Part shown: in pieces, positions 12,727 to 22,564 of the stretch
How positions within the stretch are numbered: position 1 is the stretch's first letter
How the letters are laid out: every line of letters starts with the position of its first letter
Source: a virus
Taxonomy: Duplodnaviria > Caudoviricetes
DNA length: 64,000 nucleotides
Reading direction: 5' to 3' (one strand)
IMG/VR virus record: IMGVR_UViG_2886098363_000001
Location: 12,318-76,317 of that record
Position numbers and translations under genes: made by a program
The notes under the pieces: generated by a model
What the model was told of the DNA's origin: nothing
The model's input: only the letters and a program-made list of their open reading frames with translations
Database searches by the model: none

Positions 12727-14655
12727 TTATTGCTGGGCGCCGTTCCCGGCACTGAGTTGCTTCTTGCGCTCGCCGGCGATCTGCTTGATACCTGCGATGA
12801 TGTTCTGGTCGCCGGTTTCGTTGGCCCAGGTCCAGGCGGTGGTGTAGGCCTGCTGCCATTCGGTGGTATCACATGCCCCCTCGATGGCGGCGCAGTGGTC
12901 GGCGTAGGCGTTGGCGTGGTCCGCCTGGGCGGGTTCGGCCATCTGCTCATGCTCCAGGGTGACCGATTCGATGCTCTGGCCGCGGATGGCATCCAGGGTG
13001 CGGCTCTTTGCCGGTGCGCCATGCTGCGGTTGGCTACCTGGGATCTCGTTGATGATGATCTCCTTGCCCTCCATCTCCTCGGCGGTGGGCTCGCTACCGA
13101 TCTCCGGCCAGGCCTTGCGTAGCGCCTGCGCTTCTGTGCAATTTCCACACAGCATAGACAGCCCCTTGCGACGAACAACGATGACGCCGGATGGCACAGT
13201 GACGCACCATACTTGGCCACCTATGTTTGGTTGAATGGTTAGTGAGGCGCGGTTCTTCTCAACGCCCTTTACCACCGGAGAGCTGATGGTTTCCGAGAGT
13301 GTGAACCGGCTACATTGGCCAAGGTCGCTATTTTGAACAGCAGCAACGCTTATCGAGTAGCCAGCTTGCACGGCCAGCACCTCGAAGGCTTTAATGACAT
13401 TGGCGTTCGACTGGTGTAACCGCCGCACCGAACCATTATGTGATCCGTCGAACTCCAAAAGGGCATCAACGACAATCCGCGCTTGGCGCACCGAAAGACT
13501 TAGCGCCCACTCAGGGCTTACAGATTTGTCGTGGCACATGATGCCGTTGACCAGCGCTGCGTCATATGTGAATGACTGTTTGTTACTGGTCGTAGTTATG
13601 GGACGATCACCACCGCTGATCCGGCCTGCATCCCGTTTTATTGTCTTTCGCATGTGCAACTTGAGTGAATCAAGTGCGAGCACCTTGTATGGGCGCGATA
13701 CGGCGATGCGGTACTGGTGATAGCCGGTATGTGAACCATCCGCCAGCAAATACCCAACCAGAGCCAGCAGGGAATCTGAAAATGGTGCGTCTCCACGGTT
13801 TCCCAAAACTGTGCGAGGAATGCTCCATTTATCAGAATCCGTGGTGGCTTGCTCGTAAAGCAACCCCGCCTCGACCCTGCCCTGATTCGTGATCATGTCG
13901 TGATTTGGCGTCACGCAGAAATTTAGGCGAGTGCCATCGGCAACGACCATGGGGCCGTCATAACTCTGAACGAATGGTACAGCATCGGTGTATTCGAGTC
14001 CGGCATCGGTAACCTGCAAAATACGACCTGTAACTTGGGCGAATCGTTGGAACCCCTCGGAAGTAAGCACCTCAGTCTCCGAGTCAAAACATTTTGCCAG
14101 CTGGGCATACGGACGCTTACGCCACATGGCGTTGGGGCACTCGGTCTTTCCGCTCTGGGTTGCGTAGTTCTCCTTCCAGCGCTCCAGGGCGTGGAAGGCA
14201 ACCCGCTGGCCGTTGACCATCTTATAGACGGTGTACTTGCACCACTGCGGGTAGGTGACCTTGATCTTGGCGCTCTGGTTGTAGGGGTCTTGGAACTCTT
14301 CGGTGACATCCGGCCCGAACACGGGTTCATCGGCCCCCGCGTAGTTGCCGGAGCGATCGGCCTGGATCCGGTACATGCCGATCCCGGGCATCGGCACATC
14401 CCGCCAGACCTTCTCTTTGCTGCGGGCATCGGTTACCTGCATGGGGACGAGGTGGACCGGCTTGAGCAGAATATCCAGGCCGCGCGCCTTACAGTAGTCG
14501 ATGGCCATGACCACCGAATCGGGGTTGGCTCCCGGGTAAATGGTGTTGCACAGGGCGTTCCAGGTCGGCTCGTCGATGCCTCGCTGGACAAGAATGGGGA
14601 ACTGGGCGGCGAAGTTATCGGCCGCCTGCTGTTTGAGGCTGGTGATGTTGCTCAT
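12727..14655 (-). CDS. bet: Bet/RecT-family single-strand annealing protein interrupted by an intein
   Basis: YCKARGLDILLKPVHLVP...MPGIGMYR...MWRKRPYAQLAK[intein]CTEAQALRKAWP. Lies downstream of a RecE-like nuclease. Confidence 0.92.
   Translation of the reverse strand: MSNITSLKQQAADNFAAQFPILVQRGIDEPTWNALCNTIYPGANPDSVVMAIDYCKARGLDILLKPVHLVPMQVTDARSKEKVWRDVPMPGIGMYRIQADRSGNYAGADEPVFGPDVTEEFQDPYNQSAKIKVTYPQWCKYTVYKMVNGQRVAFHALERWKENYATQSGKTECPNAMWRKRPYAQLAKCFDSETEVLTSEGFQRFAQVTGRILQVTDAGLEYTDAVPFVQSYDGPMVVADGTRLNFCVTPNHDMITNQGRVEAGLLYEQATTDSDKWSIPRTVLGNRGDAPFSDSLLALVGYLLADGSHTGYHQYRIAVSRPYKVLALDSLKLHMRKTIKRDAGRISGGDRPITTTSNKQSFTYDAALVNGIMCHDKSVSPEWALSLSVRQARIVVDALLEFDGSHNGSVRRLHQSNANVIKAFEVLAVQAGYSISVAAVQNSDLGQCSRFTLSETISSPVVKGVEKNRASLTIQPNIGGQVWCVTVPSGVIVVRRKGLSMLCGNCTEAQALRKAWPEIGSEPTAEEMEGKEIIINEIPGSQPQHGAPAKSRTLDAIRGQSIESVTLEHEQMAEPAQADHANAYADHCAAIEGACDTTEWQQAYTTAWTWANETGDQNIIAGIKQIAGERKKQLSAGNGAQQ
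13141..14091 (-). mobile_element. Intein (317 aa) with LAGLIDADG homing endonuclease
   Basis: Starts CFDSETEVLT. Block B FCVTPNHDM. Motifs LVGYLLADGS and VDALLEFDGS. Ends VWCVTVPSGVIVVRRKGLSMLCGN followed by +1 Cys. Lower GC than the exteins. Confidence 0.93.
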
Positions 14656-15497
14656 GCTGCTTTCCTTGTCGCCCAGGCTGGGCGCTGGAGGGGTTTGAAG
14701 TCGTGCCAGTCGTTGTTGACCCGGCAGTCGTGGAAGCGATGGAGGTCGCGGCGGAACAGGTCCTTGCCCGCATCCTTCCAGTCATCCGTCAGGGGGCGCA
14801 CCCGCACCGGGTAGCGGCCACAGTTCACGCTGGTGCTGACAGCCAGAAAGACGAATTCCGGCTCCTCGCCCATCACCCGGTGGAAGCCTTCGGAGTACAT
14901 GGCATCCTGCACGTGGTAGCGGAAGTCCTCGACATGGCGCTCGAAGCGCCCCATATCGTCCACCGACTTCACGTCGATCATGATGGGGTGATTGCTCAGG
15001 TGGCGGTCGGGGCGGATCCGGCACAGCTCCTGGGTCTGGGGGTCAATCCAGTAGAAGGAGGCCTCGCTGTGCCCTTCCTGCTCCAGCAGCCAGCGGGCGT
15101 CCGGGTGGGCCATCACGCTGTCGCGCATCAGGTAGAGCTTGCGTCCCTCCTCGGCATCCATCACCGTCTTGCCCAGCTCTGCGCAGCTGGCTAGGAACTC
15201 AGCCTCTTCTGCCTTGCCGGCGTTGGTGCGGCGGTTGAACGGTGGGGCGATGATGAAGCGGTCTTTGAACTCGTCGGGCTCCAGCAGCAGGCAGTGGATG
15301 GCGCTGCCCATGTCGAAGGCCTTGAGCTTCTCCTCATCTACCGGGGCATTCTTGGCCCAGATATAGGTGGCTGGGCTTTCGGCGATCTGGTCGAGCTGGC
15401 TTTTGCTGACCCCGGGGCCAGCGTGGTACTCCTCGTTGGAGAGGCCGAACACCCGGCCAAGCAGGTGCGCGGTGGAGGTGTCGGCGATGGCATTCAT
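14652..15497 (-). CDS. recE: RecE/exonuclease VIII-like PD-(D/E)XK nuclease (DUF3799)
   Basis: SNEEYHAGPGVSKSQLD...GSAIHCLLLEP...CRIRPDR...IDVKS...YHVQDAMY. Confidence 0.9.
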   Translation of the reverse strand: MNAIADTSTAHLLGRVFGLSNEEYHAGPGVSKSQLDQIAESPATYIWAKNAPVDEEKLKAFDMGSAIHCLLLEPDEFKDRFIIAPPFNRRTNAGKAEEAEFLASCAELGKTVMDAEEGRKLYLMRDSVMAHPDARWLLEQEGHSEASFYWIDPQTQELCRIRPDRHLSNHPIMIDVKSVDDMGRFERHVEDFRYHVQDAMYSEGFHRVMGEEPEFVFLAVSTSVNCGRYPVRVRPLTDDWKDAGKDLFRRDLHRFHDCRVNNDWHDFKPLQRPAWATRKAA

Positions 15498-15859
15498 GCT
15501 GCGCTCCTGTGTTGGTACTGCTCCCATTGCTCCTCGCTCATGGCGTCGTGCAGGGCGGCGAGGTGACAACCCCATTCTTCCTTGGCCAGGGCGGCCAGGG
15601 CGGCGTCCATCAGCTGCTTGGTGAGCTGCATCAGCGGGGCAGGATCGCCCTCGGTCATCAGCAGGAACATCGCCTGGTTGAGCTGCAGGCCCTGGTCGTA
15701 GTTCACCTCGGCCAGCAGGGTGGACAGGTCGGTATCGAGTTCCCCGGCCAGTAGCAGGGGGCGGTTGGCCGCGGTCCACTCGGCGACCCACTCGGCCTTG
15801 GCGTTGGCCTCGGCCTCGCGGCTTTCGAGCAGGGCGAGCATTTCGTTATCTCGGGTCAT
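15494..15859 (-). CDS. Phage hypothetical protein
   Basis: 121 aa, coupled to recE. Confidence 0.7.
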   Translation of the reverse strand: MTRDNEMLALLESREAEANAKAEWVAEWTAANRPLLLAGELDTDLSTLLAEVNYDQGLQLNQAMFLLMTEGDPAPLMQLTKQLMDAALAALAKEEWGCHLAALHDAMSEEQWEQYQHRSAA

Positions 15860-15861
15860 GG

Positions 15862-16053
15862 CTAGAGCTCCTGGGCAAGTCGCTGAGCACGCCGTTCGTG
15901 ATACTCCTCGATGGCACGGCGGGTGGCGGCCTTGGTCTTGGCCATCCGCTTTTGCTCGGCGGATGGGGCGGCGTCTACGTCATATTTGCGGCGGGTGGGT
16001 GGCACCATCGCGCCGCGAAAGCCCATCAGCTGGGCTTCGGTCAGTGGTTTCAT
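15862..16053 (-). CDS. Small phage hypothetical protein
   Basis: 63 aa with the AGGACCCAGACCATG start context. Confidence 0.7.
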   Translation of the reverse strand: MKPLTEAQLMGFRGAMVPPTRRKYDVDAAPSAEQKRMAKTKAATRRAIEEYHERRAQRLAQEL

Positions 16054-16076
16054 GGTCTGGGTCCTGTGGTGGTTGA

Positions 16077-16553
16077 TTAGTCGCTGGTCACGCTGATGGT
16101 CAGCTGTTTGCCGCGCCCCATAAAGTCAGCCAGGGCGGCGACGCGATCCTGCTGTTGGGTGACGCGGTGGCGCTGGCTGGTATCCAGCACATCCAGATTG
16201 ACGTTGACGCTGACCTCGACCAACTTGCGGGTCTCGCGTTCCAGCGTCTTGGTGTACTGCTTGGCGGCAATGGCTATCTGTTCGGACGGGGAAGCCAGCT
16301 CGTAACCGTGCCCACGCTTGATGTCGAGATAGATCTTGCGCTCGGTCAGCAGCAGCTCCCGCAACTCGTTGACGCTACGCAGCACCCGCCACTCATACTC
16401 GTCGCGGGCAGCATCGTATTCGGGGATGCTGTGGTATTTTTCCGGGAAGGGGCGTTCCAACCCCAGCATGCGGCGCAAGTCTGCGTGACTGATGAAATCG
16501 CCGTAGTGGAGCCCGAGAGCATCCCAGGCTGTCAGTTGTTCTTCCTGAGTCAT
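16077..16553 (-). CDS. Hypothetical protein coupled to the RAMP/Cas7-like gene
   Basis: 158 aa. Its ATG overlaps the upstream TGA by 4 bp. Confidence 0.8.
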   Translation of the reverse strand: MTQEEQLTAWDALGLHYGDFISHADLRRMLGLERPFPEKYHSIPEYDAARDEYEWRVLRSVNELRELLLTERKIYLDIKRGHGYELASPSEQIAIAAKQYTKTLERETRKLVEVSVNVNLDVLDTSQRHRVTQQQDRVAALADFMGRGKQLTISVTSD

Positions 16554-17137
16554 CCGGCCACCTCCACGTTGAAGCGGCCGTAAGTGCCGCCGCAGGCTGG
16601 GCGCCAGTCGCCCACGCCCACATAGCGACCGGCGTTGCCGAGCACGGTCAGCAGTTCGCTGCGATCCAGCCTGGTGTCGTCAAATTCGATGTGAAAGACC
16701 AGTTGCCAGCCAGCAGGGAAGCGCGGGCGGTGGCGCATCACTCGTGCGGTCCCCACCTTGACGCTTTTGGCCAGCGAGAAGCCCGGCGTGTCTACCAGTT
16801 GCTGCGGGTCTTGCGGGCCGTCGTAGCGCAGTGTGATCTCATCTTCCAGCACCAGCAGGCTGCGCTTGAATTCGGTACCCAACTTGTTGAGCTTGGCCGC
16901 CTCGGTCAGGCAGGCTTTCAGGTTGCTGCCCGGCAGGTGGATGCCACTGGCCCTGCTGAAGTAGATCGCCCCCAGTAGTTCGGAGCGGGCGATATCCTCG
17001 TGGTCGGTGTCGGATTTCTTGCGCTTGGAGGTCAATGCCTTGTGCGCCTTGGTCATCGGATCCAGCGGGTCGCTAAAGCGGTCGCTGTGCATCAGTAACG
17101 GGGTGGTGCCCGTCAGTGTCAGTTTCAGTGTTGCCAT
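16550..17137 (-). CDS. RAMP/Cas7-like protein (putative Vipr-type RNA-guided effector)
   Basis: 195 aa. N-terminal LKLTLTGTTPLLMH strand, internal HLPGSNLKACL motif (compare RAMP IPGSSLKG), and Gly-rich C-terminal loop GRYVGVGDWRPACGGTYGRF. RBS GAGGA. Confidence 0.8.
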   Translation of the reverse strand: MATLKLTLTGTTPLLMHSDRFSDPLDPMTKAHKALTSKRKKSDTDHEDIARSELLGAIYFSRASGIHLPGSNLKACLTEAAKLNKLGTEFKRSLLVLEDEITLRYDGPQDPQQLVDTPGFSLAKSVKVGTARVMRHRPRFPAGWQLVFHIEFDDTRLDRSELLTVLGNAGRYVGVGDWRPACGGTYGRFNVEVAG

Positions 17138-17171
17138 TGTGTAGTCCTCGTTGATGTGCCCTTCCGGGCCC

Positions 17172-17226
17172 TTGCCTTGCCCAGCCAAGCCGGGCCCTGC
17201 CACGCCGCGCCCAGCCGGGCCGAGCC
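17172..17226 (-). ncRNA. GGC-NN pentamer array B (11 units), putative guide RNA
   Basis: Minus strand reads (GGC-NN)x11 with NN = TC,CC,TG,GC,GT,AG,CC,TT,TG,AA,AA. Preceded by TGC, followed by GGG. Confidence 0.8.
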
Positions 17227-17294
17227 GCAGGGCCAAACACACTCAGGGAATGCGCTTGGCGCTGGGCGGTTTTTAACGAGGACCGCCACCTCCC

Positions 17295-17349
17295 ACGCCT
17301 TGCCACGCCATGCCACGCCATGCCCGGCCCTGCCTTGCCTCGCCAGGCC
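17295..17349 (-). ncRNA. GGC-NN pentamer array A (11 units), putative guide RNA
   Basis: Minus strand reads (GGC-NN)x11 with NN = CT,GA,AA,AG,CG,AT,GT,AT,GT,AA,GT. Preceded by TGC, followed by GGG. Confidence 0.8.
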
Positions 17350-17763
17350 GCAGCCTGGAACCCCCTGTGACAAGAGGCTCCAGGCTGGCCACTGTCACCA
17401 GTGGCCTGCCGGTTACGTTATCCGGCGCTGTCTGGTCAGCCGTTCGCGGTGTCGCGCTCTTGCCGCTAATAACAGGTATCCACCCCAGAGTTGCGGACTG
17501 CTCTACCCATGCCGCTTGGTTTATTGACCCTGGCCAGATGCAAAGCTGGCTCCCTACAAGGGGACTCGGGGCGCCATCATTACTGGCGCATGGATTGGCC
17601 GCTTTTAACGGCTGTCGGTCACATCGTTCGCACTCCATGTTGTGTTGAGGTCGCAATAGTCGAGTGATAAATCGTTCACGTTCACACGCCGCTTTCCGAA
17701 TTTACGGGTTATCGGCGCATCCCTACCGGCATCGGGATTCGTGGTTGTGAGCCGGTTCCTGGT

Positions 17764-17775
17764 TGTTAAAGAGCG
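17764..17775 (-). promoter_or_regulatory. boxA antitermination element
   Basis: CGCTCTTTAACA on the minus strand matches the lambdoid boxA consensus. Confidence 0.75.
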
Positions 17776-17874
17776 AGCTCAGCCGAATTTGGCGTGAGCG
17801 AAGCCAAAGCATCCTTGCGGTGCTTGTGAAAGAGGCTTTGGCTACGGCGCTATCAGGGAAGCGCCAGACCCGGG

Positions 17875-18186
17875 TCAGATGGCGTTGCGGTGGAACTCAG
17901 CGCGCCAGTGGAGGAGGGCGCGGCATTTCATGGCGGTCATGGTGCGCACCTTGGCAGACTGGGCGGTGCGGGCTGCGACGAGCTGGTGCCGCTCGGTGGC
18001 CATCATGGCAACCGCCAAGCGTTGCTTGATGGTTCGGCGGCGGGCGGCGTTGCCGTTCAGGCGGTCGGCGATGGCGGCAACGATCTGGTCGGCGCGTTTT
18101 GCGGCTCTGGAAATAGTGACTTTCATCATGTTATCCTTGCGTCTGTTGGCGAGTTGGTCCTCGCTAATTCCCAGTTGATTCGTCAT
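17875..18186 (-). CDS. Basic protein, possible N-like antiterminator
   Basis: First substantial ORF after PL. GNAARRRTIKQRLA resembles the arginine-rich motif of P22 N. An alternative start lies near 18129. Confidence 0.5.
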   Translation of the reverse strand: MTNQLGISEDQLANRRKDNMMKVTISRAAKRADQIVAAIADRLNGNAARRRTIKQRLAVAMMATERHQLVAARTAQSAKVRTMTAMKCRALLHWRAEFHRNAI

Positions 18187-18553
18187 GCTGGGTCCTGATT
18201 GCTGGGGTTGGTCCCTCGGCTTTCACTGACCGGGTGGTACCCGGTCCTTCGAAGCCCGCCTTGTGCGGGCTTTGTCGTTCTTACGCGCTGGTCAGGCGCT
18301 TCACTGCTGCCCTGGTTGGGGCTGGGTCCTGTTGCTGGGTGGTACTCAATTCTTTGCTGGCTTTTTACTCCGCCAGATCCGGAGGTTTGCCGGTTACGTC
18401 TCCGGCCCGGGCTCTCACCGTTCGTGTGGCATTACCCAAGACCTTCACCACGATTGGCCGCCTTCCACGCTGCCCCTTGTTGCTCCCGGCCTTGGGTATT
18501 CCATCTCAGCCCTTTCCAATTTGAACCGGTTGTTGCTGTTTTGGAATGAGCTG

Positions 18554-18601
18554 ATTATTGCCAAATAGAAATGAAAGGTCAATGACGTTCCAAAAAGAAA
18601 T
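18554..18601 (-). promoter_or_regulatory. PL promoter with two overlapping putative CI operators
   Basis: TTGACC(18577-82)-17-AATAAT(18554-59). Operator-like ATTGCCAAATAGAAAT (18557-72) and CGTTCCAAAAAGAAAT (18586-601). Confidence 0.7.
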
Positions 18602-18622
18602 TCATAATTTTTTCAGAGCAAC

Positions 18623-18646
18623 AAAAAGCCCGCCAAGTGGCGGGCT
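18623..18646 (-). terminator. cI terminator
   Basis: AGCCCGCCA-CT-TGGCGGGCT followed by TTTTT. Confidence 0.75.
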
Positions 18647-18669
18647 ATCAATGTGCAGTAGAAGGCAGT

Positions 18670-19281
18670 TCAAGAGGGGAGGCGGATCTCGATAACTTTG
18701 CCTATGGGGAGTAGTTGTTTATCGGTGAGAGAACCTGCACGAGGGTCATCCACGCCATAACGCCAATCTGGTAGGCCCTGGATCGCACGCAGGAACATGA
18801 ACTTGTCGTCCACCTTGGCCAGCATGATCTTGTTGTGTTCTGGCTTGTTATCACTGAGATCAACCAAGCACAAGGCTCCATTGGTAATGCCTGCATCAGC
18901 CAGTTGGTCATTGTCAGCTACCACGGCTATCAGGTGGCCGTCCCTCTCTGTAGCCAGCTTGCGGCCTGTGTCTGCGTGGGGCCAGGCATCGATAGTGGGG
19001 TCTTCCAGTAGCCCAGGCATAGTAAAAACAGGCACCATGCCGGGACCCGCTTCGATGTCACGAATAAGGCTGTCTGCGGAGCGCCCTAGATATAGCCAGA
19101 CAGGGTCAACCTTCAACTGCTTGGCAATGGACATGAGGCTACTTGCTCTAACCTCTCGGCCAGGTTCAGAGAGTATTCGGCTGATCACCGGTGGGGATAT
19201 CCCTGTTTTGCGGCTCAGTTCAGCGGCGCTCACATGTAACTCTTTCATCCTTGCCTGCAATCGTTCCGCAAAGTTTTTCAT
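18670..19281 (-). CDS. cI: CI-like repressor (HTH plus degenerate S24 domain)
   Basis: FAERLQARMKELHVSAAELSRKTGISPPVISRIL HTH, divergent from cro. Confidence 0.88.
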   Translation of the reverse strand: MKNFAERLQARMKELHVSAAELSRKTGISPPVISRILSEPGREVRASSLMSIAKQLKVDPVWLYLGRSADSLIRDIEAGPGMVPVFTMPGLLEDPTIDAWPHADTGRKLATERDGHLIAVVADNDQLADAGITNGALCLVDLSDNKPEHNKIMLAKVDDKFMFLRAIQGLPDWRYGVDDPRAGSLTDKQLLPIGKVIEIRLPS

Positions 19282-19326
19282 CGATTCACCTATTGCATTT
19301 TGTAAACCAAGTCTATCAAGGAGGAA

Positions 19327-19378
19327 ATTTCCAATGGGAGCGGATTGGGTTGCAAAAATTTCCGTTTAGAAATAAAGT
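19327..19378 (+). promoter_or_regulatory. PR promoter with putative operators
   Basis: TTGCAA(19350-55)-17-TAAAGT(19373-78). ATTTCCGTTTAGAAAT (19358-73) and ATTTCCAATGGGAGCG (19327-42) share the consensus seen at PL. Confidence 0.7.
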
Positions 19379-19410
19379 TCGTGTGAGCACCAACCACACG
19401 AGGACCACCT

Positions 19411-19626
19411 ATGCGTATCGACGATGTAACCAAGTTCTTTGGCAATGCGGCCAAGGCGTGCAACGCCATCGGCACGAGCCAATCAAATTTCACCAAGTGG
19501 AGGAAGCTGAACAAGGGCATTGTCCCGGCCCAGCATGCCGTCCAGTTTGTGTTGGCCAGCAATGGCGAGCTGCGACTGGGGCTGGAGGATTACTCCCTCA
19601 GCAAGACCCAAGACCAAGCCGCCTAA
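19411..19626 (+). CDS. cro: Cro-like regulator
   Basis: 71 aa, FFGNAAKACNAIGTSQSNFTKW...VP, divergent from cI. Confidence 0.85.
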   Translation: MRIDDVTKFFGNAAKACNAIGTSQSNFTKWRKLNKGIVPAQHAVQFVLASNGELRLGLEDYSLSKTQDQAA

Positions 19627-20823: not shown

Positions 20824-21213
20824 ATGGGAAGAGTAACGCTCCCCGATCATGAAAATATGAGCACCCGCTCCCCGCTGCGGGTGCGCGGCACCCCAGCTCA
20901 GCGCCAGGTATGGCAGGAAGTAGGCGCCGAGTGTGGCATGACTGAAACCGCATTTGCCCGCACCTCGCTGCTGATCCTGCTCCAGGCAATATCTCAGCAT
21001 GAGCCCGGCATCTTGGCGAGGGCCGTCAAACGGGCCAATCGGAGCCTGCTCGAGCAGGGATTTCCGCCCGTGACCGTCGAGGAGATCCTGGATGGCTCCG
21101 GTCTGCCCGAGCGCGGCCTGCTCCAGTTCAGCCAAGAAGACGAGGCCGCCTACAACGAGGAGCGCCCGCTGCGCCCCCTGCAAAAACTCATCAACTTTGT
21201 CCTCGGGAGGTAA
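20824..21213 (+). CDS. Putative DNA-binding regulator in the cII position
   Basis: 129 aa, ribbon-helix-helix-like LRVRGTPAQRQVWQEVGAECGMTETAFAR. Confidence 0.6.
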   Translation: MGRVTLPDHENMSTRSPLRVRGTPAQRQVWQEVGAECGMTETAFARTSLLILLQAISQHEPGILARAVKRANRSLLEQGFPPVTVEEILDGSGLPERGLLQFSQEDEAAYNEERPLRPLQKLINFVLGR

Positions 21214-21641: not shown

Positions 21642-21765
21642 TCCGTCATCTGTTGCCACCTGGGAGCTCTATGAGCTCAAGAAGCGTGAATTGCAAGCAA
21701 TGGGGTTATCCCAGCGTGAGTACGAGCTGGCCGTGCGCCAGCTTGCTGATGAGCTGGGGGTGTGA
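21634..21765 (+). CDS. Small conserved phage protein (not in the ORF track)
   Basis: MANPSSVATWELYELKKRELQAMGLSQREYELAVRQLADELGV with a GGAGGT RBS. Confidence 0.65.
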   Translation: MANPSSVATWELYELKKRELQAMGLSQREYELAVRQLADELGV

Positions 21766-21766
21766 G

Positions 21767-22564
21767 ATGAGCATGGCTCTTATGGTTAAGGCGATGAGCA
21801 TCAAGGTAGGTAACCCGCTTCGCAAACTGGTGCTGATCAAGCTGGCAGACAATGCCAGCGACAACGGTGAATGCTGGCCATCACATCAGCATATTGCCGA
21901 TCAGTGTGAGATCTCCCGGCGTTCAGTGATCAATCACATTGAGGCTCTGTGTGAATCCGGCTTGCTGAAAAAAGAGGGTCGATTAGGGCCTAATGGCAAG
22001 AAGTCGAACATGTACGTTTTGAGTCTTGATGGTGCAGGAGCTGCACATCAGAATGTGCAGGAGATTCACCAGGGTGGTGCAGGAGCTGCACATCCGAATG
22101 TGCAGGAGATTCACCAGGGTGGTGCAGGAGCTGCACAAGGGGGTGGTGCAGGAGCTGCACATAGAATCAGTCACTCTTTAGAACCAGTCATTGAACCAGT
22201 AATACCCCCTGTATCCCCCAAGGGGGAAAAATCAAAGCGCGGGACGCGTTTGCCTGATGACTGGAAACTTCCCAAAGCCTGGGGTGAGTGGGCAATGACC
22301 GAGCTTGGCCTGTTGCGAAACCAGATCCTGCTGGAGGCGGAAACTTTCGCCGACTACTGGCAATCACTGCCAGGCGCCAAGGCGGTGAAGCTGGACTGGG
22401 AGAAGACCTGGCGAAACTGGGTCCGTCGCTCCTGCACCAGCCCGTCGCGAAAACCTGCTAACCGCAAACCGGAGCCGCCGATGCCACGGGCCTTTGGCGA
22501 GGACGCTGCCCCGAGCGGCAAGCCATCGGCTCCGGCCTTCCGTCCACGCGCTTTCGGGGAGTGA
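21767..22564 (+). CDS. Replication initiator (lambda O-like, HTH_36)
   Basis: KLVLIKLADNASDNGECWPSHQHIADQCEISRRSV. Contains internal iterons and precedes DnaB. Confidence 0.9.
   Translation: MSMALMVKAMSIKVGNPLRKLVLIKLADNASDNGECWPSHQHIADQCEISRRSVINHIEALCESGLLKKEGRLGPNGKKSNMYVLSLDGAGAAHQNVQEIHQGGAGAAHPNVQEIHQGGAGAAQGGGAGAAHRISHSLEPVIEPVIPPVSPKGEKSKRGTRLPDDWKLPKAWGEWAMTELGLLRNQILLEAETFADYWQSLPGAKAVKLDWEKTWRNWVRRSCTSPSRKPANRKPEPPMPRAFGEDAAPSGKPSAPAFRPRAFGE
22032..22160. repeat. Replication origin iterons inside the initiator gene
   Basis: 4x GTGCAG-GAG-CTGCAC (inverted symmetry) and 2x GTGCAGGAGATTCAC. Confidence 0.85.

What the first reader, a model, noticed from the sequence alone, without database searches (positions are those of the whole stretch)
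16550..17430. Phage-encoded RAMP/Cas7-like gene with two 11-unit GGC-NN arrays: candidate compact RNA-guided (VIPR-like) system
Seen: directly upstream of a 195-aa gene, on the same (minus) strand, are two 55-nt arrays (17295-17349 and 17172-17226). Each is exactly 11 x GGC-NN, with invariant GGC and freely varying NN, opened by TGC and closed by GGG. Identical length and framing with unrelated NN content is not how microsatellites evolve. It looks like a constant scaffold carrying 22 variable information bases. The protein has RAMP/Cas7 hallmarks: an N-terminal beta strand (LKLTLTGTTPLLMH), LPGSNLKA, and a Gly-rich C-terminal loop (GVGDWRP...YGRF). No cas1, cas2, cas3 or CRISPR array is present in the window. 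Recalled and to be verified: this matches the recently described VIPR systems, in which a Vipr protein binds GGY/NN repeat RNA and recognises dsDNA through a gapped code in inter-phage conflict. Inference: one protomer binds each pentamer, giving two distinct guides.
Basis: partly seen in the sequence, partly recalled or inferred. Interest (0 to 1): 0.97.

Follow-up and report, generated by a model that had tools for sequence, protein, structure and literature searches.

The report
Aeromonas prophage VIPR RNA-guided silencer
This is a genuine member of the VIPR family described in 2026: a small Cas7-like protein, its partner gene and two guide RNAs made of GGC-NN repeats, carried by an Aeromonas prophage, with one guide predicted to silence the first early gene of rival related prophages.

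Summary
Two arrays of exactly 11 GGC-NN units lie on the minus strand at 17295-17349 and 17172-17226. They sit directly upstream of a 195-aa gene.

That protein matches the solved SUSP1 Vipr protein (PDB 36pp, E 1.5e-47) and keeps its RNA-contact residues. Its model (pLDDT 94) has a Csm3/Cas7 fold. The overlapping 158-aa gene is a Vap1 homolog.

The 1.5-kb cassette sits in the early-left operon of an Aeromonas lambdoid prophage. The order is cI, a pL-like promoter, an N-position gene, boxA, then the cassette. The 92%-identical phage phiARM81mr lacks the cassette.

Relatives whose Vipr is 96-100% identical carry 1-3 arrays of 9-13 units. The NN content differs and the tails are the same.

Under the published 1-nt-skip rule, guide A matches the N-position gene of related prophages. 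Units 1-9 match 18/18 and the whole guide 19/22. Skip bases fall on wobble positions. The footprint lies on a 30-nt hypervariable patch where the host phage's own allele scores only background.

Guide B has no detectable target, and there is no self-target.

VIPR was published in three 2026 bioRxiv preprints, so this is a new member of a known kind.

The parts
16066..17590 (-). VIPR cassette as an indel relative to Aeromonas phage phiARM81mr
   Evidence: blastn of the window against L010. The flanks 15493-16065 and 17591-18351 are homologous. In phiARM81mr about 76 bp (L010 6354-6431) stand where the window has 1.5 kb.
16550..17137 (-). vipr: 195-aa Vipr protein (stand-alone RAMP/Cas7-like)
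   Evidence: phrog_4652, E 1.5e-63. PDB 36pp_D 'SUSP1 Vipr protein', E 1.5e-47 over residues 3-193. AF2 model pLDDT 94.4. Foldseek top hits are Csm3/Cas7. H17, K33, R137 and R179 are invariant and D177 nearly so in 41 homologs.
16077..16553 (-). vap1 homolog: 158 aa, start overlaps the vipr stop (ATGA)
   Evidence: phrog_5926, E 2.3e-23. tblastn gives 30% identity, E 4e-12, to the gene immediately downstream of vipr in Felixounaviruses including SUSP2 (coordinates compared).
17295..17349 (-). vrRNA-A guide region: 11 x GGC-NN (CT GA AA AG CG AT GT AT GT AA GT)
   Evidence: Predicted target found.
17227..17294 (-). tail 1 of vrRNA-A: cap hairpin or possible H-type pseudoknot, then a G-U-rich hairpin ending CUG+C before array B
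   Evidence: RNA fold -31.2 kcal/mol, z -3.3. The sequence is near-identical after non-terminal arrays in L002, L004, L005, L006 and L043.
17172..17226 (-). vrRNA-B guide region: 11 x GGC-NN (TC CC TG GC GT AG CC TT TG AA AA)
   Evidence: No target found.
17138..17171 (-). tail 2 of vrRNA-B: GCCC-GGAA-GGGC cap hairpin, then the vipr Shine-Dalgarno
   Evidence: Conserved before vipr in all VIPR+ relatives.
17351..17405 (-). conserved structured leader: GNRA-loop hairpin (17405-17388) and a hairpin (17387-17351) ending CUG+C before array A
   Evidence: Alignment A1. Conserved in all VIPR+ relatives and in the solo-vrRNA locus L043. The loop is GUGA in some and GCAA in others.
17764..17774 (-). 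boxA-like element (GCTCTTTAACA) between the N-position gene and the arrays
   Evidence: Exact and unique in the window. Also present in relatives' leaders.
17875..18186 (-). N-position gene: 103 aa, first gene after the pL-like promoter, function unknown. Its homologs in rival prophages are the predicted target of vrRNA-A.
   Evidence: No Pfam or PHROG hit.
18114..18143 (-). own-allele version of the 30-nt hypervariable patch that coincides with the vrRNA-A footprint in rivals
   Evidence: Alignment A3. vrRNA-A scores only 14/22, on another site, in genes with this allele.
17870..17904 (+). site in the window's own N-position gene (3' end) matched 19/22 by a solo vrRNA of the VIPR-null relative L043
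   Evidence: The skip bases are in phase with wobble positions, derived from the coordinates of the stop codon (17875-17877).
18554..18582 (-). sigma-70-like promoter (pL-like) downstream of the cI terminator (18627-18646)
   Evidence: It is the only promoter-like site found in 15800-19400.
18670..19281 (-). cI-type repressor (HTH_3 + Peptidase_S24)
   Evidence: Synteny with phiARM81mr CI.

Best explanation
The locus is a type II-like VIPR system (Viral Interference Programmable Repeat). It is carried as a 1.5-kb accessory cassette in the early-left operon of an Aeromonas lambdoid prophage.

Shown by sequence and homology: vipr, vap1 and two GGC-NN arrays with conserved structured flanks are present. 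Relatives swap the NN content while keeping the protein.

Taken from the published mechanism: one Vipr protomer binds each GGY. The protomers form a helical filament that presents the NN dinucleotides. The ribonucleoprotein binds dsDNA whose sequence reads NN-x-NN-x (1-nt skip), and this blocks transcription.

Inferred here:
- The arrays are probably transcribed from the pL-like promoter through the N-position gene and boxA, and then cut out at the flanking hairpins.
- vrRNA-A directs Vipr to codons about 17-27 of the N-position gene of co-resident or incoming related prophages. A roadblock there would stop their early-left transcription ahead of boxA, the recombination genes and int.
- The host phage escapes because its own allele is rewritten exactly under the footprint.
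- The target of vrRNA-B is unknown.
For: Family membership:
- PDB 36pp_D SUSP1 Vipr, E 1.5e-47.
- SUSP1 contact residues H17, K33, R138, D177, W178 and R179 (paper) are all conserved.
- The AF2 model has pLDDT 94, and Csm3/Cas7 are the top folds.
- The partner gene is a Vap1 homolog.
- Arrays in six relatives with 96-100% identical Vipr have 9-13 units with unrelated NN and conserved tails.
- Pseudomonas phage LESphi2 has the same synteny: cI, arrays, vipr, vap.

Context:
- 92% nucleotide identity to phiARM81mr, which lacks the cassette.
- A promoter and terminator are predicted downstream of cI, and boxA is present.

Target of vrRNA-A:
- The 18-base pattern from units 1-9 gave only 3 hits in IMG/VR. 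All three fall on the same site of the N-position gene of related proviruses. About 0.6 hits were expected by chance, scaled from the 9 hits that a 16-base pattern gave.
- The whole guide matches 19/22, which exceeds all 300 shuffled guides.
- Skip bases fall on the wobble positions.
- 10 of 48 related loci score at least 18/22.
- The footprint coincides with a hypervariable patch in an otherwise near-invariant gene.
- The own allele scores background, and the best self-match in the 76-kb record is 15-16/22.
Against: No expression, processing or binding data exist for this locus.

The three mismatches of vrRNA-A all fall in the last two units. Those units look semi-constant across arrays, and their role in pairing is unknown.

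Most rival alleles score only 17/22, below the published 80% cut-off.

vrRNA-B has no target in IMG/VR, in JGI metagenomes or in 48 related loci.

The function of the N-position gene is unknown; it has no Pfam, PHROG or Atlas match.

No promoter specific to the cassette was found, so expression timing is inferred from position only.

The pseudoknot in tail 1 is read by eye and is not supported by covariation.
Confidence: 0.85

Rival explanations
1. It is a VIPR system, but the match of vrRNA-A to the N-position gene is fortuitous or non-functional. The real targets of both guides would then be elements absent from the databases searched, such as Aeromonas satellites, plasmids or host loci.
For: vrRNA-A matches only 19/22, and most alleles score 17/22. 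Shuffled guides reach 18/22 in 12 of 300 trials. vrRNA-B has no target at all. Aeromonas chromosomes could not be selected for scanning.
Against: All three IMG/VR-wide exact hits fall on one homologous site, in the gene that lies upstream of the cassette (with boxA between them) in the host phage's relatives. The match is in wobble phase. It coincides with a hypervariable patch. Other guides of the clade also land on this gene: L058 array 1, and L043 solo guide 1 at 20/22.
Confidence: 0.2
2. The arrays are decoys or regulators of vipr itself rather than guides against rivals. For example, array B abuts the vipr ribosome-binding site, so Vipr bound to it could autoregulate translation.
For: Tail 2 ends 8-20 nt before the vipr start, and the Shine-Dalgarno lies just after the cap hairpin. 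The published work describes decoy-directed solo vrRNAs (abstract).
Against: The NN content of the last array is as variable among relatives as that of the others. Pure autoregulation would not require that. Autoregulation and guiding are not mutually exclusive.
Confidence: 0.1
3. The arrays are an ordinary GC-rich microsatellite or a piece of a short Gly/Trp/Ala-rich ORF, and the neighbouring gene is an unrelated phage protein.
For: ORFs of 82 aa can be drawn across the arrays.
Against: GGC is invariant while NN varies freely. Array length changes in 5-nt steps. The arrays are flanked by conserved hairpins. The protein matches the solved Vipr structure's sequence at E 1.5e-47.
Confidence: 0.01

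Closest known systems
Type II VIPR systems (Escherichia phage SUSP1; Pseudomonas fulva prophage clade), bioRxiv 10.64898/2026.04.26.720920
   Same: It has a Vipr homolog (45% identity to SUSP1 Vipr) with the RNA-contact residues conserved. It has a Vap1 homolog immediately downstream. Its GGY-NN arrays have 11 units, within the published 9-16. The arrays lie upstream of vipr, as in the P. fulva locus (vrRNA1-3, vipr, vap1). It is prophage-borne. The predicted target is an early gene of rival prophages, with skip bases at wobble positions. There is no self-targeting.
   Different: The host is Aeromonas, which is not mentioned in the main text of the discovery paper. Its Vipr clade is distinct: the nearest proteins outside the clade are 66-70% identical and P. 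aeruginosa LESphi2 is 48%. There are two tail types. The internal tail has a possible pseudoknot plus a long hairpin. The terminal tail is a 4-bp GGAA hairpin abutting the vipr ribosome-binding site. The target is the N-position gene downstream of pL, not a cI/cro-type regulator or a satellite recombinase.
VIPR-null phages with solo vrRNAs ('guns for hire'), bioRxiv 10.64898/2026.10.15.759431
   Same: The relative L043 keeps two arrays with the same leader and tail but lacks vipr and vap. Its first guide matches relatives' DNA at 19-20/22, including this window, and spares its own copy at 16/22 or less.
   Different: That paper describes Enterobacteriaceae SUSP1-like lytic phages whose solo guides hit vipr, vrRNAs or satellites. 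Here the carrier is a temperate Aeromonas phage, and the guide hits the 3' end of the N-position gene.
Class 1 CRISPR backbone subunits (Cas7/Csm3)
   Same: The protein has an RRM/RAMP fold with a G-loop and a thumb. Csm3 and type VII Cas7 are the top structural matches. One protomer binds per repeat period.
   Different: The protein is stand-alone at 195 aa. There is no CRISPR array, and I found no sign of an adaptation module, though I did not search for cas genes. The guide is a 5-nt repeat with 2 informative bases per unit. Sequence identity to Cas7 proteins is only 10-18%.

Membership tests
VIPR (type II) | Vipr protein homologous to characterised Vipr | tested here: met
   phmmer against PDB: 36pp_D SUSP1 Vipr, E 1.5e-47, residues 3-193. 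phrog_4652, E 1.5e-63.
VIPR (type II) | Minimal RAMP fold: RRM core, G-loop and thumb | tested here: met
   AF2 model pLDDT 94.4, pTM 0.87. Foldseek top hits are Csm3/Cas7, probability 1.00. I did not inspect the thumb and G-loop individually in 3D. The G-loop motif GVGDWRP is identical to that of SUSP1.
VIPR (type II) | GGY-binding residues of SUSP1 Vipr (H17, R138, D177, W178, R179) and the skip-base contact K33 | tested here: met
   All six are aligned and identical in the window protein (residue list from the paper). H17, K33, R137 and R179 are invariant, and D177 is at least 90% conserved, in 41 homologs.
VIPR (type II) | vrRNA: 9-16 tandem GGY/NN units with conserved GGY and hypervariable NN | tested here: met
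   Two arrays of 11 units. Relatives with 96-100% identical Vipr have unrelated NN and 9-13 units.
VIPR (type II) | Invariable structured 3' tail capping the repeat tract (a pseudoknot in the SUSP1 clade) | tested here: inconclusive
   The tails are conserved, and hairpins are predicted (z -3.3). The pseudoknot pairing GAGG/CCTC with GGCGGT/ACCGCC is read by eye. There is too little variation for a covariation test.
VIPR (type II) | vap1 accessory gene next to vipr | tested here: met
   The 158-aa ORF overlaps the vipr stop. It is homologous to the gene downstream of vipr in SUSP2 and Felixounaviruses.
VIPR (type II) | Placement in the type II clade of the published Vipr phylogeny | not tested
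   The reference tree and sequences of the paper are not at hand. The type is inferred from similarity to SUSP1 Vipr, vap1 and the array layout.
VIPR (type II) | Natural targets under the 1-nt skip rule (at least 80% NN match) in competing mobile elements, with no self-target | tested here: met
   vrRNA-A scores 19/22 (86%) in three rival proviruses and 18/22 in seven more, in wobble phase. The best self-match is 15-16/22. vrRNA-B has no target.
VIPR (type II) | vrRNAs are transcribed, co-purify with Vipr, and the RNP binds dsDNA and represses transcription | not testable with these tools
   This needs sRNA-seq, pull-down, EMSA and reporter assays.
CRISPR-Cas (class 1) | CRISPR repeat-spacer array and further cas genes (cas1/2, large subunit) | tested here: not met
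   No spaced direct repeats of 22 nt or more in the window. Within the cassette, vipr and vap are the only ORFs with family or homology support.

The most novel reading that the evidence does not exclude
The N-position gene of this group of Aeromonas lambdoid prophages is a VIPR battleground. A 30-nt hypervariable patch in an otherwise invariant gene sits exactly under guide footprints. The VIPR+ phage carries both the guide against the common allele and a rewritten, immune allele of its own. This would amount to a new RNA-guided layer of 'heteroimmunity' between temperate phages.

A VIPR-null relative (L043) keeps solo guides aimed at the same gene, including this phage's copy.

Guide repertoires turn over by exchange or loss of whole hairpin-array-tail modules and by recombination inside arrays. 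The single 9-unit array in L003 is units 1-4 of A joined to units 7-11 of B across a shared 9-nt GGCAGGGCC. This gives a first hint of how VIPR guides change without an adaptation machine.
Probability: 0.45. Interest if true: 0.6.

Novelty: new member of a known kind. Interest (0 to 1): 0.45.

Why it matters
VIPR is a months-old discovery, tested experimentally only for Escherichia phage SUSP1 and a Pseudomonas fulva prophage.

This locus extends it to temperate Aeromonas phages and offers a compact natural test case. The guide, its predicted target allele and the matching immune allele are all identified. A natural cassette-minus phage (phiARM81mr) and a natural solo-guide relative are also at hand.

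It could be used to ask whether VIPR decides which of several related prophages wins after induction. It could also be used to ask how guide sets evolve.

It does not reveal a new kind of system.

Tried and rejected
1. vrRNA-B target. I searched the full 22-base pattern and the 9-unit pattern in IMG/VR, an 8-unit pattern in IMG/VR, and the full and 9-unit patterns in JGI metagenomes. The hits have mixed G+C (0.39-0.70), mostly non-coding contexts and no similarity to Aeromonas prophages. I judged them to be chance.

2. Scanning Aeromonas chromosomes with mismatches. This was not possible. A virus record has no 'relatives', a taxon name is not accepted as a centre, and the class-level sample carries no taxon labels. 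That sample showed only that 0 of 400 other genomes, drawn from the class of the Cellvibrionaceae MAG that served as centre, have a close Vipr.

3. Full 22-base vrRNA-A pattern in IMG/VR: 0 hits. The match appears only when the two 3'-most, semi-constant units are left out.

4. Rfam search of 15500-19500: nothing relevant.

5. Function of the N-position protein: no Pfam, PHROG or Atlas match.

6. A cassette-specific promoter: none predicted, and no conserved promoter-like block upstream of the leader.

7. The L041 array-1 match to window 20944-20978 (17/20) equals the maximum of the shuffled-guide null, so I did not count it.
Full report
**Observation**

The minus strand of 17140-17410 reads: structured leader, TGC, 11 x GGC-NN, GGG plus a 68-nt tail, TGC, 11 x GGC-NN, GGG plus a short hairpin, Shine-Dalgarno, ATG. 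The arrays are at 17295-17349 (A) and 17172-17226 (B).
- GGC is invariant in all 22 units, and the NN differ between the arrays.
- The next-best GGY-NN run on either strand of the 64-kb window has 4 units.
- The 195-aa ORF is at 16550-17137(-). A 158-aa ORF at 16077-16553(-) starts on an ATGA overlap with its stop.
- No CRISPR-like spaced repeats occur in the window.

**What the protein is**

- Pfam finds nothing. PHROGs gives phrog_4652, of unknown function, at E 1.5e-63.
- Against PDB sequences the only real hit is 36pp chain D, 'SUSP1 Vipr protein', at E 1.5e-47 over residues 3-193.
- The cryo-EM paper (10.64898/2026.04.26.720927) names the contacts that hold the GGY bases (H17, R138, D177, W178, R179) and the skip-base contact K33. 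All six are aligned and identical here.
- In an alignment of 41 homologs, H17, K33, R137, G174 and R179 are invariant and D177 is nearly so.
- An AlphaFold2 model built from that alignment has pLDDT 94.4 and pTM 0.87. Its best PDB folds are Csm3/Cas7 subunits of type III and type VII CRISPR complexes, with E about 5e-6 and probability 1.00.
- The 158-aa neighbour is phrog_5926. It is 30% identical (E 4e-12) to the gene that lies immediately downstream of vipr in Felixounaviruses, including SUSP2 (coordinates compared). It is therefore a Vap1 homolog.

**What is known**

Three 2026 bioRxiv preprints describe VIPR.
- Vipr is a phage-borne minimal RAMP.
- vrRNAs consist of 9-16 GGY/NN units followed by a structured tail.
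- Recognition of dsDNA follows a 1-nt skip rule (NN-x-NN), with skip bases usually on codon wobble positions.
- The outcome is transcriptional silencing of competing phages and satellites.
- Type II includes SUSP1 and a Pseudomonas fulva prophage clade whose locus is vrRNA1-3, vipr, vap1.

The window's layout is the same as that of the P. fulva locus.

**Genomic context**

- The window is part of a 76-kb IMG/VR provirus.
- It is 92% identical over long stretches to Aeromonas phage phiARM81mr.
- That phage lacks the cassette. Window 16066-17590 is replaced there by about 76 bp, between conserved flanks.
- On the minus strand the order is: cI (18670-19281; HTH plus S24); terminator-like hairpin (18627-18646); the only sigma-70-like promoter of the region (18554-18582); a 103-aa gene of unknown function in the position of lambda N (17875-18186); a boxA-like element (17764-17774); the leader and arrays; vipr; vap1; then the exo/RecT recombination genes.
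- Pseudomonas phage LESphi2 has the same arrangement: cI, arrays, vipr, vap.
- I infer, but have not shown, that the cassette is expressed as part of the early-left transcript and that the vrRNAs are cut out of it.
- The leader is conserved in all relatives. It has a hairpin with a GNRA loop (GUGA or GCAA) and a second hairpin that ends CUG+C exactly at the array start. The long hairpin in tail 1 ends in the same way before array B.

**Relatives**

- IMG/VR holds six records with Vipr 96-100% identical to this one and two more at 69%. A Cellvibrionaceae MAG is also at 69%. The large protein collection holds proteins at 66-70% identity.
- The near-identical ones carry one to three arrays of 9-13 units. 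Their NN content is unrelated, and their tails are the same. The guides therefore turn over far faster than the protein.
- The single 9-unit array of L003 equals units 1-4 of A joined to units 7-11 of B, across a 9-nt stretch that both arrays share. This is a deletion of exactly one 123-nt module.
- Of 48 related prophage loci retrieved through the N-position protein, only four have vipr/vap.
- One locus, L043, has two arrays with the usual leader and tail but no vipr/vap. It is a solo-vrRNA locus of the kind reported for SUSP1-like phages.

**Targets**

I converted each guide to the published NN-x pattern.
- For vrRNA-A the full 22-base pattern has no exact match in IMG/VR.
- The pattern from units 1-9 has three matches. 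All three lie at the same site of the N-position gene of related proviruses.
- A 16-base pattern from guide B gave 9 scattered hits. About 0.6 chance hits are therefore expected for an 18-base pattern.
- Over the whole guide the match is 19/22. None of 300 shuffled guides reached 19 in the 1.86 Mb of related loci.
- The three mismatches fall in the last two units. These units (AA GT, AA AA and the like) recur at the ends of many arrays and may be part of the scaffold.
- The guide has the sense of the antisense strand. The skip bases coincide with the third codon positions of the stretch E-C-T-M-T-I-R-L-F-S-R.
- Ten of the 48 loci score at least 18/22, and most others score 17/22.
- The gene is nearly invariant in the first 127 nt examined, except for a 30-nt patch (alignment columns 44-73) with at least five alleles. 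The footprint (columns 49-80) sits on that patch.
- The window and five relatives carry a different patch (window 18114-18143). In their genes vrRNA-A finds only a background 14/22, elsewhere in the gene. L029, the record with the A/B chimera, is one of these five.
- Nothing in the 76-kb record scores above 15-16/22 for either guide.
- The first solo guide of L043 matches the 3' end of the N-position gene at 19-20/22 in 30 of 50 sequences. This includes the window at 17870-17904, again in wobble phase. L043 itself scores 16 or less.
- L058 array 1 also lands on the 5' part of this gene, at 17/20.
- One IMG/VR contig carries two N-position genes about 50 kb or more apart (L049 and L062). Related prophages therefore do co-reside.

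For vrRNA-B I found no target: 16/22 at best in related loci, and only chance-like hits in IMG/VR and metagenomes.

**Mechanism**

- Taken from the papers: one protomer binds per unit; the filament presents the NN; dsDNA is bound with every third base skipped; transcription is blocked on either strand.
- Shown here by sequence: every component is present and conserved. One guide has a statistically supported, wobble-phased match in rivals, and the host phage carries a non-matching allele.
- Inferred: the cassette is expressed from pL. Binding inside the first gene of a rival's early-left operon would stop transcription before boxA, the recombination genes and the integrase. This would hold back the rival after co-induction or superinfection.

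**Verdict**

The system belongs to a kind that was already published in 2026, so it is a new member (Aeromonas clade) and not a new system.

The added value lies in the identified guide/target/immune-allele triplet, the hypervariable patch, the natural cassette-minus and solo-guide relatives, and the evidence for modular and intra-array recombination of guides.

The scan had also noted this stretch in other first-reader notes. The boxA lead came from there, and I checked it.

Noticed in passing
window 13141-14091 (within RecT ORF 12727-14655, minus strand): The RecT gene is 642 aa here against 325 aa in phiARM81mr. About 950 bp are inserted in frame between conserved RecT halves, consistent with an intein, as an earlier first-reader note said. 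Pfam RecT covers only residues 31-189.
   Followed up: partly
L043 10570-10629 and 10698-10757 (IMGVR_UViG_2639762719_000002): A related prophage has two GGY-NN arrays with the same leader and tail 1 but no vipr or vap within 10 kb. These are solo vrRNAs. Guide 1 matches the 3' end of the N-position gene of 30 of 50 relatives at 19-20/22, including window 17870-17904, and spares its own copy.
   Followed up: partly
L003 2922-2966 (= L029 10564-10608; IMGVR_UViG_2879030280_000001): The single 9-unit array is a chimera of window array A (units 1-4) and array B (units 7-11), joined across the shared 9-nt GGCAGGGCC. This is loss of one 123-nt module by recombination inside the arrays. This phage also carries the window's immune N-gene allele.
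   Followed up: yes
L064 2049-2343 (Pseudomonas phage vB_Pae_LESphi2, OQ594955.1): The Liverpool-epidemic-strain prophage LESphi2 has three GGY-NN arrays, some with degenerate units, between a gene annotated 'sigma factor' and a vipr/vap pair annotated as hypothetical. Each array ends in GG followed by a short hairpin of different sequence.
   Followed up: partly
window 22030-22161: A 45-bp tandem repeat (2.4 copies, 98% identical) with nested 22-bp repeats lies inside the ORF 21653-22564. This ORF is the counterpart of phiARM81mr replication protein O. The repeats are probably origin iterons.
   Followed up: no
L049 and L062 (both IMGVR_UViG_2687453145_000002, 116 kb): One provirus record contains two different N-position genes about 50 kb or more apart. 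Two related prophages therefore lie on one contig, which is the situation in which inter-prophage VIPR targeting would matter.
   Followed up: no
window 17405-17388 and relatives (alignment A1): The leader hairpin keeps a GNRA tetraloop while its sequence changes: GUGA in the window, L029 and L058, and GCAA in L041, L054 and L043. This suggests a structural or processing role.
   Followed up: partly
window 17405-17590: The stretch between the boxA region shared with phiARM81mr and the conserved leader is specific to the window. It does not align with the other VIPR+ relatives. Its content is unknown.
   Followed up: no
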